This document shows positions 5,758 to 5,949 of a stretch of 64,000 nucleotides of DNA, piece after piece. Numbering within the stretch: position 1 is the stretch's first letter; the number at the start of each line of letters is the position of its first letter. Source of the DNA: an archaeon (GTDB lineage: Archaea > Nanobdellota > Nanobdellia > Pacearchaeales > GW2011-AR1); the NCBI GenBank assembly GCA_043797265.1, contig JAZDPV010000012.1, forward strand, positions 13,875 to 77,874. Reading direction: 5' to 3'. The position numbers and the translations under genes were made by a program. The notes under the pieces were generated by a model. It was given only the letters and a program-made list of their open reading frames with translations. It was not told the origin of the DNA and ran no database searches.

Positions 5758-5949
5758 ATGTTAGTGTTAAGTAGAAACCGAGACGAATCCATCATGATCG
5801 GCGACGAGATGGAAATCACCATCATCGACATCCGTGACGGCAAAGTTCGACTGGGCATCACCGTCCCAAAGAGCATCCCCGTTCATCGTCGGGAAATCTA
5901 CGACGCCATCCAGCGCGAGAAAGCGCAACAAGAACAAGCCAAAGCCTAA
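5758..5949 (+). CDS. csrA: carbon storage regulator CsrA/RsmA family RNA-binding protein
   Basis: MLVLSRNRDESIMIGDEMEITIIDIRDGKVRLGITVPKSIPVHRREIY matches the CsrA signature along its whole length. AAGGAG lies 7 nt upstream of the ATG. Confidence 0.85.
   Translation: MLVLSRNRDESIMIGDEMEITIIDIRDGKVRLGITVPKSIPVHRREIYDAIQREKAQQEQAKA

What the first reader, a model, noticed from the sequence alone, without database searches (positions are those of the whole stretch)
5758..5949. A bacterial-type CsrA regulator in an archaeal genome
The 63-aa product matches the CsrA/RsmA signature along its whole length (MLVLSRNRDESIMIGD...VRLGITVPKSIPVHRREIY). To my knowledge CsrA is a bacterial post-transcriptional regulator and is also carried by some phages. 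The surrounding window is clearly archaeal (aIF2-gamma, S6e, L7Ae, ABCE1, Dph5). There is no FliW partner nearby. Either the archaeon or a mobile element in it uses GGA-motif RNA regulation, or the gene targets the RNA of a bacterial host or neighbour.
Basis: partly seen in the sequence, partly recalled or inferred. Interest (0 to 1): 0.65.

Follow-up and report, generated by a model that had tools for sequence, protein, structure and literature searches.

The report
Bacterial CsrA regulator inside DPANN archaea
A small RNA-binding regulator (CsrA), reported so far only from bacteria and phages in the papers I could search, is a real, intact and selectively maintained gene in a group of tiny Woesearchaeota archaea, which took it from Planctomycete bacteria and keep it in a variable gene island whose genes, unlike the rest of the genome, carry bacterial-style ribosome-binding sites that CsrA could block.

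Summary
Window 5758-5949 (+) encodes a 63-aa CsrA: Pfam E=3e-22, above the NCBIfam equivalog cut-off, ungapped alignment to E. coli CsrA, L4 and R44 conserved. The window is archaeal (aIF2-gamma, aIF5B, S6e, deoxyhypusine synthase, Kae1).

It is not an assembly artefact. The same methylase - ATPase - [island with csrA] - PEP synthase - NTase arrangement occurs in independently assembled Woesearchaeota contigs (L023, L093/L094). A third relative (L102) has csrA in the same hotspot.

The nearest relatives are Planctomycetota (Phycisphaerae/Sedimentisphaerales) CsrA, 76-88% identical. L023 keeps the donor-type C-terminal tail. The window copy lost it and has shifted toward the host's extreme A/C-rich strand composition.

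The gene is under purifying selection (pN 0.10, pS 0.76). It is patchy: 3 of 59 related loci that could be checked.

Host genes look leaderless. All nine island ORFs have an AAGGAG-type Shine-Dalgarno site (12 of 14 AAGGAG in 64 kb lie in 3 kb). The csrA leader keeps the donor's two GGA sites.

The likely function, inferred only, is translational repression of SD-led island mRNAs, including its own. No FliW or CsrB-like antagonist was found.

Verdict: new member of a known family in an unexpected domain. Interest is moderate.

The parts
5758..5949 (+). csrA coding sequence (63 aa, stop included). This is the RNA-binding core only. The C-terminal tail found in the donor type has been lost.
   Evidence: L4 and R44 are invariant in alignment A2.
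5728..5757 (+). csrA leader with two GGA motifs (5730-5732 and 5747-5749, 17 nt apart). The second lies in the Shine-Dalgarno sequence AAAAGGAGTT, which is identical to the SD of Planctomycete csrA genes.
   Evidence: Direct reading. Comparison of leaders across archaeal, Planctomycete and CPR loci. DNA alignment A1.
5950..6010 (+). Remnant of the C-terminal tail coding region, now non-coding. It still aligns with the tail codons of L023 and of Planctomycete L014, after a 5-nt gap and a stop codon.
   Evidence: alignment A1.
5500..5720 (+). Purine-only tract with the highest GGA density on the + strand (13 GGA per 200 nt). It is either the leader of the csrA mRNA or a 63-aa K/R/E-rich ORF (5524-5715). 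Its role is unsettled.
   Evidence: It is not conserved in L023.
5452..5491 (+). Strong hairpin (about 12 bp) followed by TTTTT. It looks like a terminator after ORF 4991-5437. The T-run overlaps the only TATA-like element upstream of csrA (TTTTTAAC, 5487).
   Evidence: Direct reading, the fold and the TATA scan. The automatic terminator scan missed it because the loop is longer than 8 nt.
3457..6812 (+). Variable island between the conserved ATPase and PEP synthase genes. It holds two tRNA genes, csrA and eight other small SD-led ORFs, mostly membrane or lipoprotein-like. Its third-position A+C is 0.69-0.76, against 0.83-0.89 in host + strand genes.
3724..3793 (+). tRNA-Val with an unusual AAC anticodon and C33, at the left edge of the island.
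   Evidence: The homologous tRNA-Val(TAC) is in L023.
4569..4638 (+). tRNA-Lys(TTT) inside the island. It shares its 3' 30 nt (90% identity) with the tRNA-Val.
   Evidence: repeat family D6.
3861..4082 (+). SD-led ORF (73 aa, proline-rich). A homologue at 39% identity sits at the same place in L023/L093/L094.
4200..4313 (+). SD-led ORF (37 aa, one transmembrane helix). The motif W-x-ELAFCK-x-VAE is shared with an L023 ORF (seen by eye).
4371..4541 (+). SD-led ORF (56 aa, membrane). A homologue is in the same hotspot of L119.
4757..4942 (+). SD-led ORF (61 aa) with a lipoprotein-type signal (LIQGC). Homologues are in the hotspot of L095 and L098.
4991..5437 (+). SD-led ORF (148 aa, multi-pass membrane protein). 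No family match.
6031..6282 (+). SD-led ORF just downstream of csrA (83 aa, K/R-rich then coiled-coil-like). Its leader has two GGA motifs 17 nt apart.
6298..6435 (+). SD-led ORF (45 aa, lysine-rich). Its leader has two GGA motifs.
6509..6757 (+). SD-led ORF (82 aa, membrane). It is preceded by a 17-bp hairpin (6452-6488).
   Evidence: (inverted repeat I2).
6783..6812 (+). Hairpin (AGGACGC/GCGTCCT) plus a run of 7 T. This is the likely end of island transcription. The TATA-rich promoter region of PEP synthase follows.
   Evidence: Direct reading and the TATA scan.
1489..3456 (+). Left backbone gene: a HerA/FtsK-like P-loop ATPase. It is conserved next to the hotspot in many relatives.
6971..9409 (+). 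Right backbone gene: PEP synthase. It appears leaderless (TATA-like TTTATATA at 6943, 28 nt before the ATG). It was used as the anchor to collect related loci.

Best explanation
Window 5758-5949 is a functional csrA gene that a lineage of Woesearchaeota (DPANN archaea) acquired by horizontal transfer from Planctomycetota of the Phycisphaerae/Sedimentisphaerales type, possibly through a phage. It landed in a hypervariable hotspot between a conserved ATPase gene and the PEP synthase gene. It has been inherited through at least one speciation, is being recoded toward the host's extreme A/C-rich strand composition, and in this genome has lost the donor's disordered C-terminal tail. It remains under purifying selection.

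Mechanism (inferred, not shown): the CsrA dimer binds A(N)GGA motifs. Most genes of this genome appear to be translated from leaderless mRNAs with no Shine-Dalgarno sequence. The obvious targets are therefore the few SD-led mRNAs, first of all csrA's own two-GGA leader (autorepression, as in E. coli) and the neighbouring small membrane and lipoprotein genes of the island. CsrA would occlude their AAGGAG ribosome-binding sites. No protein antagonist (FliW) or sRNA antagonist (CsrB type) is evident. Control would then rest on autoregulation, or on cis GGA-rich RNA such as the purine tract upstream of csrA.

Sub-confidences: genuine, horizontally acquired and selectively maintained archaeal csrA, about 0.9. 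Planctomycete-type donor, about 0.85. SD occlusion on island or own mRNA as the mode of action, about 0.45.
For: Identity as CsrA.

Archaeal host.

Real linkage:
- L023 (Candidatus Woesearchaeota MAG) and L093/L094 (JGI metagenomes) carry methylase - ATPase - tRNA-Val - homologous small ORF - csrA - PEP synthase - NTase in the same order.
- Their flanks are 84-90% identical in DNA to the window.

Donor:
- All best hits, at 76-88% identity, are Planctomycetota.
- L023 csrA DNA is 84-86% identical to Planctomycete L014/L009 and keeps the tail motif HPGGNNEP.
- The SD AAAAGGAGTT is identical to the donors'.
- In an NJ tree the window and L023 are sisters (348 of 500 bootstraps), nested among Planctomycete sequences.

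Residence in the host genome:
- Bacterium-to-archaeon differences are G>A 11-13 against A>G 2-3.
- Several amino-acid changes (V18M, V23I, V25I) are first-position G>A changes.
- Third-position G falls from 0.31-0.40 in the closest donors to 0.19 in the core (0.17 over the whole ORF).

Selection:
- Window against L023: pN 0.097, pS 0.76. Against L014: dN/dS about 0.05.
- L4 and R44, which are critical for RNA binding (PMC7652899), are invariant.

Targets:
- 22 of 41 host genes have a TATA-like box at -36 to -19 from the start codon. Only 3 of 41 have an SD core. All 9 island ORFs have one (Fisher p=9e-8).
- Independently of ORF calls, 12 of the 14 AAGGAG on the + strand lie in 3800-6800, where 0.7 are expected.
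- csrA and the two ORFs after it have two GGA motifs 13-17 nt apart. This is within the 10-63 nt bridging range of a CsrA dimer (PMC7652899).
Against: - No binding or expression data exist. The mechanism is inference from motifs.
- SD-led ORFs also fill the same hotspot in L096, which has no csrA. The SD architecture therefore does not depend on CsrA, and these genes can do without it.
- csrA is absent from close relatives (L096, L098) and present in only 3 of 59 informative loci, so it is dispensable.
- The start codons of four island ORFs were chosen partly because an SD precedes them, which makes the per-ORF test partly circular. The AAGGAG count is not circular.
- The G-rich minus-strand transcripts contain abundant GGA by composition alone (1721 against 511), so target specificity is unclear.
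- csrA's synonymous divergence between the window and L023 is about twice that of the flanks. This could mean separate acquisitions or exchange of island alleles rather than simple vertical descent.
- L102's copy does not group with the other two (3 of 500 bootstraps).
- Archaeal copies change at the protein level faster than Planctomycete ones, where dN is 0 among L014, L013 and L006. That is compatible with relaxed constraint.
- No antagonist was found.
Confidence: 0.6

Rival explanations
1. The island, csrA included, is cargo of a virus, plasmid or other mobile element that targets this hotspot. CsrA serves the element, for example by reprogramming translation of SD-led element genes or interfering with competitors, rather than the host's physiology.
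For: - The hotspot varies from 0.8 to 4.9 kb among relatives and holds a mosaic of small genes shared in patches: o4371 in L119, o4757 in L095/L098, o3861 in L023.
- It carries tRNA genes with odd anticodon loops, and L119 has a tRNA reading TTA and two undetermined tRNAs. This is common for viral or mobile DNA.
- The island is less adapted to host composition than the backbone genes.
- A 106-kb IMG/VR phage contig (L086) encodes a 79% identical CsrA.
- The island is more diverged between the window and L023 than the backbone is.
Against: - No integrase, capsid, replication or transfer gene is present in the island, and no PHROG hits were found for its ORFs.
- No direct repeats flank it, apart from the shared 3' halves of the two tRNA genes.
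- Its left part is syntenic in two species whose backbones have dS of about 0.5. That argues for residence, not recent insertion.
Confidence: 0.2
2. The gene is a passenger on its way to decay. It was transferred by chance, is not (or no longer) used, and its conservation only reflects the short time since transfer.
For: - Distribution is patchy and the gene is absent in close relatives.
- The C-terminal tail was lost through a frameshift and stop in the window copy.
- Amino-acid change is faster than in the bacterial donors.
Against: - Synonymous sites between the window and L023 are saturated (pS 0.76) while pN is only 0.097. Neutral decay would give pN close to pS.
- The ORF, its SD and the critical residues are intact in all three archaeal lineages.
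- The fully ameliorated L102 copy (third-position G 0.09) is still a high-scoring CsrA, Pfam E=1.6e-26.
Confidence: 0.08
3. The CsrA is delivered to, or acts on the RNA of, a bacterial host or neighbour of this probably symbiotic archaeon.
For: - DPANN archaea are widely regarded as episymbionts (general knowledge).
- The gene derives from bacteria that may share the habitat, since the closest homologues come from Planctomycete MAGs and metagenome contigs.
- Nothing more specific supports this.
Against: - The 63-aa protein is only the RNA-binding core and starts directly with beta-strand 1, leaving no room for a signal peptide or secretion domain.
- No secretion apparatus lies next to it.
- Potential targets are already in cis, in the same island.
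Confidence: 0.03
4. The finding is an assembly or binning artefact: a Planctomycete fragment joined to, or binned with, archaeal sequence.
For: - The gene's GC (0.51) and codon usage differ from the neighbouring genes.
- The closest homologues are all bacterial.
Against: - The gene lies 2.3 kb and 1.0 kb inside archaeal backbone genes on one contig, so an artefact would need two chimeric joins.
- The same arrangement recurs in three other independent assemblies.
- The substitution pattern follows the host's strand bias.
- The exact protein carries two NCBI accessions, both labelled archaeon.
Confidence: 0.02

Closest known systems
CsrA of Planctomycetota (Phycisphaerae / Sedimentisphaerales type), e.g. 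the genes in L014, L013, L006 and L009
   Same: - 84-86% amino-acid identity over the 58-residue core.
- Identical SD (AAAAGGAGTT) and a two-GGA leader.
- The L023 archaeal copy even keeps the donor tail motif HPGGNNEP and 84-86% DNA identity.
   Different: - The host is an archaeon.
- The window copy is truncated to 63 aa (donors are 81-96 aa) and recoded toward A/C at silent sites.
- It carries 8 substitutions in a core that is invariant among the closest donors (L006, L013, L014): Q7N, K8R, V18M, V23I, V25I, G27D, D28G, A36V.
- The genomic neighbours are unrelated. Donors sit near BlaR/M56 peptidase, DUF401 and MFS genes.
E. coli CsrA / Pseudomonas RsmA-RsmE (Csr/Rsm system of Gammaproteobacteria)
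   Same: - Same fold and length class (about 61 aa, no long tail).
- Ungapped alignment at 46% identity. L2, L4, R6, V42, H43, R44, I47 and Y48 are identical and V40 is conservatively replaced by I.
- No FliW.
- A leader with GGA sites, one in the SD, as in the autoregulated E. coli csrA (PMC7652899).
   Different: - No CsrB/CsrC/RsmY/RsmZ-like sRNA was detected by Rfam in the window, and no BarA-UvrY context.
- R7 is replaced (N here, Q in the donors).
- The host translation system is archaeal and mostly leaderless, so a global regulon of the E. coli kind is unlikely.
CsrA-FliW partner-switch systems (Bacillus subtilis, Campylobacter, Geobacillus; PDB 5DMB)
   Same: - CsrA core fold (5DMB chain D is among the matches).
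- The donor-type proteins have a C-terminal extension, the region FliW uses in Bacillus (PMC7652899).
   Different: - No FliW was recognised in the island or next to the donor genes that were examined.
- Archaea have no flagellin.
- The window copy has lost the extension altogether.
Phage-encoded CsrA homologues
   Same: IMG/VR contigs carry CsrA genes. One of them (L086, a 106-kb phage-like contig with terminase- and portal-like ORFs) is 79% identical and also tail-less at 61 aa.
   Different: The window's island has no recognisable virus genes and is chromosomal and syntenic across species.

Membership tests
CsrA/RsmA family (Pfam PF02599, TIGR00202, NF002469) | Full-length sequence match above the curated thresholds | tested here: met
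   PF02599 78.6 bits (cut-off 27). NF002469 87.3 bits (cut-off 73). TIGR00202 78.3 bits (cut-off 70.1)..
CsrA/RsmA family (Pfam PF02599, TIGR00202, NF002469) | CsrA fold: five beta-strands plus a C-terminal helix, forming an interlocked homodimer | tested here: inconclusive
   The alignment to solved CsrA structures is ungapped. The monomer model (pLDDT 69) shows beta2-beta4 and the helix, and its top 15 PDB matches are all CsrA/Rsm. Strands beta1 and beta5 and the dimer could not be modelled as a monomer.
CsrA/RsmA family (Pfam PF02599, TIGR00202, NF002469) | RNA-binding residues L4 and R44 (with L2, R6, V40/I40, V42, I47) | tested here: met
   These residues are invariant or conservatively replaced in alignment A2 and in the alignment to 1Y00. 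Their importance is taken from PMC7652899. R7 is N here (Q in the donors).
CsrA/RsmA family (Pfam PF02599, TIGR00202, NF002469) | Binds GGA motifs in RNA | not testable with these tools
   Only candidate sites can be listed. A binding assay is needed.
Csr/Rsm regulatory system (regulator plus targets plus antagonist) | Target mRNAs with GGA sites, one overlapping the Shine-Dalgarno sequence, often two sites 10-63 nt apart | tested here: inconclusive
   Such sites are present in csrA's own leader and in the island ORFs. They are nearly absent from the host genes of the window, which look leaderless. The presence of motifs is not proof of regulation. The hotspot of a csrA-less relative has the same SDs.
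Csr/Rsm regulatory system (regulator plus targets plus antagonist) | Antagonist: a multi-GGA sRNA (CsrB/RsmZ type) or the protein FliW | tested here: not met
   Rfam found no CsrB/Rsm family at gathering level in 64 kb, or at E<=5 in the island. The island ORFs gave no FliW or other significant Pfam hit. The GGA-rich purine tract 5500-5720 is a candidate cis element only. The rest of the genome was not available.
Csr/Rsm regulatory system (regulator plus targets plus antagonist) | Bacterial host (the family was described as exclusive to bacteria, PMC7366521) | tested here: not met
   The host contig is archaeal. The closest syntenic genome is labelled Candidatus Woesearchaeota.

The most novel reading that the evidence does not exclude
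This would be the first Csr-type post-transcriptional circuit operating in Archaea. A bacterial RNA-binding repressor crossed the domain boundary together with its own SD and two-GGA leader. It has been co-opted to gate translation of the minority of SD-dependent mRNAs, an accessory island of small surface and membrane proteins, in an organism whose core genes are leaderless. It would work without FliW or a CsrB-type sRNA, with the GGA-rich purine leader acting as a built-in cis titrator.
Probability: 0.25. Interest if true: 0.7.

Novelty: new member of a known kind. Interest (0 to 1): 0.5.

Why it matters
CsrA is one of the best-studied bacterial global regulators. A 2020 family review (PMC7366521) states that it has been detected only in bacteria, and I found no paper describing an archaeal one. 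The NCBI annotation pipeline has already labelled this protein 'CsrA [archaeon]'.

An archaeal lineage keeps the gene under purifying selection through speciation. This suggests that the CsrA mode of control, occlusion of a GGA-containing ribosome-binding site, can be transplanted into archaeal translation.

The case also offers a natural experiment. The genome is largely leaderless, so the SD-led genes form a small and well-defined candidate regulon.

It also adds a clean, datable example of bacterium-to-DPANN gene flow. The donor clade is identified. The transferred DNA is still 84-86% identical to the donor's in one species, while amelioration is visibly under way in another.

The protein itself is an ordinary CsrA, its distribution is patchy, and its function is unproven. 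The finding is therefore interesting but not a new kind of system.

Tried and rejected
- **Exact-protein contig lookup.** The lookup for the window's CsrA found nothing on record. The window's own genome was also not among the listed genome contigs matches. The rest of the genome therefore could not be searched for FliW, for further csrA copies or for 16S.
- **Rfam.** The gathering scan of the window and the permissive scan of the island found only the two tRNAs and chance-level hits. No CsrB/Rsm RNA was found.
- **Promoter and terminator scan.** The bacterial-consensus scan was uninformative: counts equalled the shuffles, and it missed both long-loop hairpins.
- **Folding of 5440-5800.** Apart from the terminator hairpin, the purine tract is unstructured (z = -0.8). 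A CsrB-like array of GGA hairpin loops is rejected.
- **Island ORFs.** Pfam and PHROGs gave no significant family for any of them. The idea that the whole island came from the Planctomycete donor is rejected, because the donors' csrA neighbourhoods are unrelated and SD-led ORFs fill the hotspot in relatives without csrA.
- **Integration by a tRNA-targeting element.** The only repeat of note is the shared 3' half of the two tRNA genes. No third copy marks an att site.
- **Low-GC 'Saccharibacteria' contigs.** L051, L071 and L077 are genuine CPR bacteria (type IV pilin, MurC, EF-P, Fmt), not further archaea.
- **My own errors.** Four island ORFs were first entered one or two bases out of frame. 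This was corrected. The earlier composition and homology figures for those four ORFs should be ignored.
- **Tree building.** A first Biopython tree run timed out and was replaced by a numpy NJ implementation.
- **PEP synthase as a target.** Its adjacency to csrA is tempting, because CsrA controls gluconeogenesis in E. coli (my own knowledge). It is rejected as evidence, because the same gene flanks the hotspot in all relatives without csrA and its mRNA appears leaderless with no GGA site.
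Full report
**1. The observation**

AAAAGGAG precedes the start codon by 7 nt.

- It matches Pfam CsrA (PF02599) end to end: E=3.3e-22, 78.6 bits against a cut-off of 27.
- It passes two NCBIfam equivalog models for CsrA.
- It aligns without a gap to E. coli CsrA (PDB 1Y00) over residues 1-59, E=7e-16.
- A monomer AlphaFold model is only fair (pLDDT 69), as expected for a protein that folds as an interlocked dimer. Its 15 best PDB matches are nevertheless all CsrA/RsmA/RsmE structures.
- L4 and R44, singled out as critical for RNA binding (PMC7652899), are conserved, as are L2, R6, V42, H43, I47 and Y48.

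**2. The host is archaeal**

The same contig encodes aIF5B, ribosomal protein S6e, aIF2-gamma, deoxyhypusine synthase, a Dph5-like methylase, Kae1, TrmB, archaeal-type ProRS, a split IleRS and a twin-ABC ATPase that fits ABCE1.

The exact protein is already in NCBI as 'MAG: carbon storage regulator CsrA [archaeon]' under two accessions, on a 122-kb contig.

**3. It is not an artefact**

A scan of species-representative genomes with the protein returned, among Planctomycete records, one contig of a 'Candidatus Woesearchaeota archaeon' (L023). That contig is collinear with window 1-11,500:

- RNA methylase, HerA-like ATPase, a tRNA-Val, a homologue of ORF 3861, further small ORFs, csrA, PEP synthase and a nucleotidyltransferase, in the same order.
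- Its flanks are 84-90% identical in DNA to the window.

Two JGI metagenome contigs (L093, L094) carry the same arrangement with the same CsrA as L023. Four assemblies from different projects therefore share both junctions.

The differences between the window gene and three bacterial homologues are also strongly directional: G>A 11-13 against A>G 2-3. This matches the host's unusual composition. The + strand is 34.6% A, 29.9% C, 12.6% G and 22.9% T. Third codon positions are 83-89% A/C in typical + strand host genes and about 85-90% G/T in many - strand genes. Three of the amino-acid replacements (V18M, V23I, V25I) are first-position G>A changes. The gene has been evolving inside this genome.

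**4. Where it came from**

- The 120 best database relatives (76-88% identical) carry only Planctomycete names where a source names them. They are typically 81-101 aa, because of a low-complexity C-terminal tail.
- The 80 best genome hits are almost all labelled Phycisphaerae, Sedimentisphaerales, Pirellulales or Planctomycetota.
- The L023 copy (95 aa) still has the donor tail, including HPGGNNEP as in Planctomycete L014. It is 84-86% identical in DNA to L014/L009.
- In the window the tail region is still alignable, but a 5-nt gap and a stop codon have removed it from the ORF.
- The SD and start context (AAAAGGAGTT...ATG) is identical to that of the donors.
- In an NJ tree of 65 distinct core sequences, the window and L023 are sisters (348 of 500 bootstraps), nested among Planctomycete sequences. 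They share the derived D28G.
- A phage-like IMG/VR contig (L086) encodes a 79% identical, tail-less CsrA, so a viral vehicle is conceivable.

**5. How it is distributed**

I used the N-terminal part of the adjacent PEP synthase as an anchor and collected 80 related metagenome loci.

- The backbone (methylase) - ATPase - spacer - PEP synthase - NTase is widely conserved, but the spacer ranges from about 0.8 to 4.9 kb.
- Of 59 loci with at least 1.4 kb upstream of PEP synthase, only L093, L094 and L102 contain csrA.
- L096 and L098, which are about as close to the window as L023 is, have other genes there.
- L102 is a more distant relative (PEP synthase 78-81%). It has a 61-aa, fully ameliorated csrA (third-position G 0.09) in a different island. 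That island also holds a second, divergent CsrA-like ORF, a PEP-CTERM protein, a Clp_N fragment and lipoproteins. Its CsrA does not group with the other two (3 of 500 bootstraps), so a second acquisition is possible.
- Island ORFs recur in patches in other relatives.

The spacer is thus a recombination or insertion hotspot, and csrA is an accessory gene of it.

**6. Is it used?**

Between the window and L023, synonymous sites of csrA are saturated (pS 0.76) while pN is 0.097. Against Planctomycete L014, dN/dS is about 0.05-0.07. That is purifying selection.

Two caveats apply:

- The archaeal copies change at the protein level faster than the donors, where dN is 0 among L014, L013 and L006 at dS>1.
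- csrA's pS is about twice that of the flanking genes, which have pS 0.33-0.41. This may reflect accelerated change in a gene out of compositional equilibrium, or exchange of island alleles.

**7. What it could act on**

This is the most informative context.

- Host genes in the window mostly have a TATA-like box (TTTAAAAA, TTATATAA and similar) starting about 28-30 nt before the start codon and no Shine-Dalgarno sequence. They appear to be leaderless. 22 of 41 have the box at -36 to -19, and 3 of 41 have an SD core.
- All nine island ORFs are preceded by AAGGAG, AGGAG or AAGGA at 6-9 nt (Fisher p=9e-8). Four of those starts were chosen with the SD in view.
- Independently of ORF calls, 12 of the 14 AAGGAG hexamers on the + strand of the 64-kb window fall in the 3 kb of the island, where 0.7 are expected.
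- The csrA leader has two GGA motifs 17 nt apart, one in the SD. This layout is conserved in the Planctomycete and CPR homologues and in L023. It is within the 10-63 nt range that one CsrA dimer can bridge. E. coli CsrA represses its own translation in this way (PMC7652899).
- The two ORFs downstream of csrA also have paired GGA motifs.
- Upstream of csrA, a strong hairpin with a T-run (5452-5491) ends the preceding unit. The only TATA-like element before csrA is at 5487. The 220-nt purine tract that follows has the highest GGA density on the + strand (13 per 200 nt) and is predicted to be unstructured. It may be a GGA-rich leader, or it may encode a 63-aa K/R/E-rich peptide. It is not conserved in L023, so I give it little weight.
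- The hotspot in L096, which lacks csrA, is also full of SD-led ORFs. CsrA therefore joined an SD-using gene cluster rather than creating it.

**8. What is missing**

- No CsrB/Rsm-type RNA was found by Rfam.
- No FliW or other recognisable family was found among the island ORFs.
- No second csrA is present in the window.
- The rest of the genome could not be reached.

**9. Interpretation**

*Shown:*
- This is a bona fide CsrA gene of Planctomycete type.
- It is resident in Woesearchaeota genomes and present at one variable hotspot in at least three lineages.
- It is partly to fully ameliorated, tail-less in two of them, and under purifying selection.

*Inferred:*
- It acts as in bacteria, by binding GGA at ribosome-binding sites.
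- Its reachable targets are the SD-led mRNAs, beginning with its own and those of the surrounding small membrane and lipoprotein genes.

*Rivals:*
- Cargo that serves a mobile element (about 0.2).
- A decaying passenger (about 0.08).
- Action on a bacterial neighbour (about 0.03).
- An artefact (about 0.02).

**10. Comparison with what is known, and novelty**

The protein passes the sequence tests and retains the RNA-binding residues that define the CsrA family; the fold test was consistent but inconclusive, because the dimer could not be modelled. As a system it fails two tests: the host is not bacterial, and no known antagonist was found.

A family review stated that CsrA homologues had been detected only in bacteria and anticipated archaeal ones from metagenomes (PMC7366521). 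A 2026 survey covers the bacterial domain (PMC13443453). My searches found no description of an archaeal CsrA. The database annotation already names it, however.

I rate it a new member of a known kind, in an unexpected domain, of moderate interest (0.5). The interest comes mainly from the testable idea that a bacterial SD-occluding repressor works in an archaeon whose core genes are leaderless.

Noticed in passing
window 1-64000 (whole window); also L094, L096, L098: There is an extreme strand asymmetry with no sign change over 64 kb. The + strand is A 34.6%, C 29.9%, G 12.6%, T 22.9%, and GC skew reaches -0.68 in 1-kb windows. Third codon positions are 83-89% A/C in + strand genes and about 85-90% G/T in - strand genes, so silent sites are almost fully dictated by strand. 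Close relatives share the bias, but some more distant ones (L109, L110) do not. One literature search found no paper on it.
   Followed up: partly
window 3724-3793 and 4569-4638; L023 4685-4757 and 5372-5443; L119 2984-3768: The tRNA genes inside the hotspot are odd. The window's tRNA-Val has anticodon AAC and C33. Its counterpart in L023 is Val(TAC), and L023 has a second Val(TAC) where the window has Lys(TTT). L119 has a tRNA reading TTA ('stop') and two with undetermined anticodons. The window's two tRNAs share their 3' 30 nt at 90% identity.
   Followed up: partly
window 3457-6970 and the equivalent spacer in L093-L149: The interval between the HerA-like ATPase gene and PEP synthase is a hypervariable hotspot (0.8-4.9 kb) across a Woesearchaeota clade. 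It is filled with different combinations of small SD-led membrane and lipoprotein genes.
   Followed up: partly
L102 1-7000 (Ga0307928_10000017): In this related archaeal contig the hotspot holds bacterial-looking genes. There is a PEP-CTERM protein (4023-4841), a Clp_N fragment (4973-5248), an FHA protein, lipoproteins and an ACP-like ORF. There are also two CsrA genes: a typical one (5695-5880) and a divergent 52-aa one (2944-3102, Pfam E=1.5e-7).
   Followed up: partly
L051, L071, L077: Low-GC (35%) contigs labelled Candidatus Saccharibacteria carry short (61-65 aa) CsrA genes of the same Planctomycete-type subfamily, 72-78% identical. They are genuine CPR bacteria by their neighbours (type IV pilin, MurC, EF-P, Fmt). 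A second group of ultra-small organisms therefore has this CsrA type.
   Followed up: partly
L086 6001-6183 (IMGVR_UViG_3300035698_016830, 106 kb): A phage-like contig (37% GC, terminase- and portal-like ORFs nearby) encodes a 61-aa CsrA that is 79% identical to the window's. It shares L at position 7 with the L023 archaeal copy. Its host is unknown.
   Followed up: no
window 55967-56647 and 56737-58857: Isoleucyl-tRNA synthetase is split into two consecutive ORFs. The N-terminal catalytic part is 226 aa and the remainder 706 aa, with 90 nt between them.
   Followed up: no
window 11472-11567: There are two perfect 34-nt direct repeats (GTCCCTGAAACCTGAATTCTGAAACCTGAAACCT) 48 nt apart, plus a degenerate third. 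They lie in the gap between a 23S-rRNA-IVP-family gene (11072-11434, -) and the next gene.
   Followed up: no
window 18641-19243 (-), 48479-49522 (+), 40892-45793 (-): Other typically bacterial genes sit in this archaeal window: a SleB-type cell-wall hydrolase (PF07486), a DisA-type diadenylate cyclase, and DNA gyrase A and B. Unlike csrA, their composition is fully host-like.
   Followed up: no
window 36001-40000: GC content drops to 0.29-0.34 over the 974-aa ORF 37142-40066 (-). This contrasts with about 0.44 elsewhere and suggests another foreign or fast-evolving segment.
   Followed up: no
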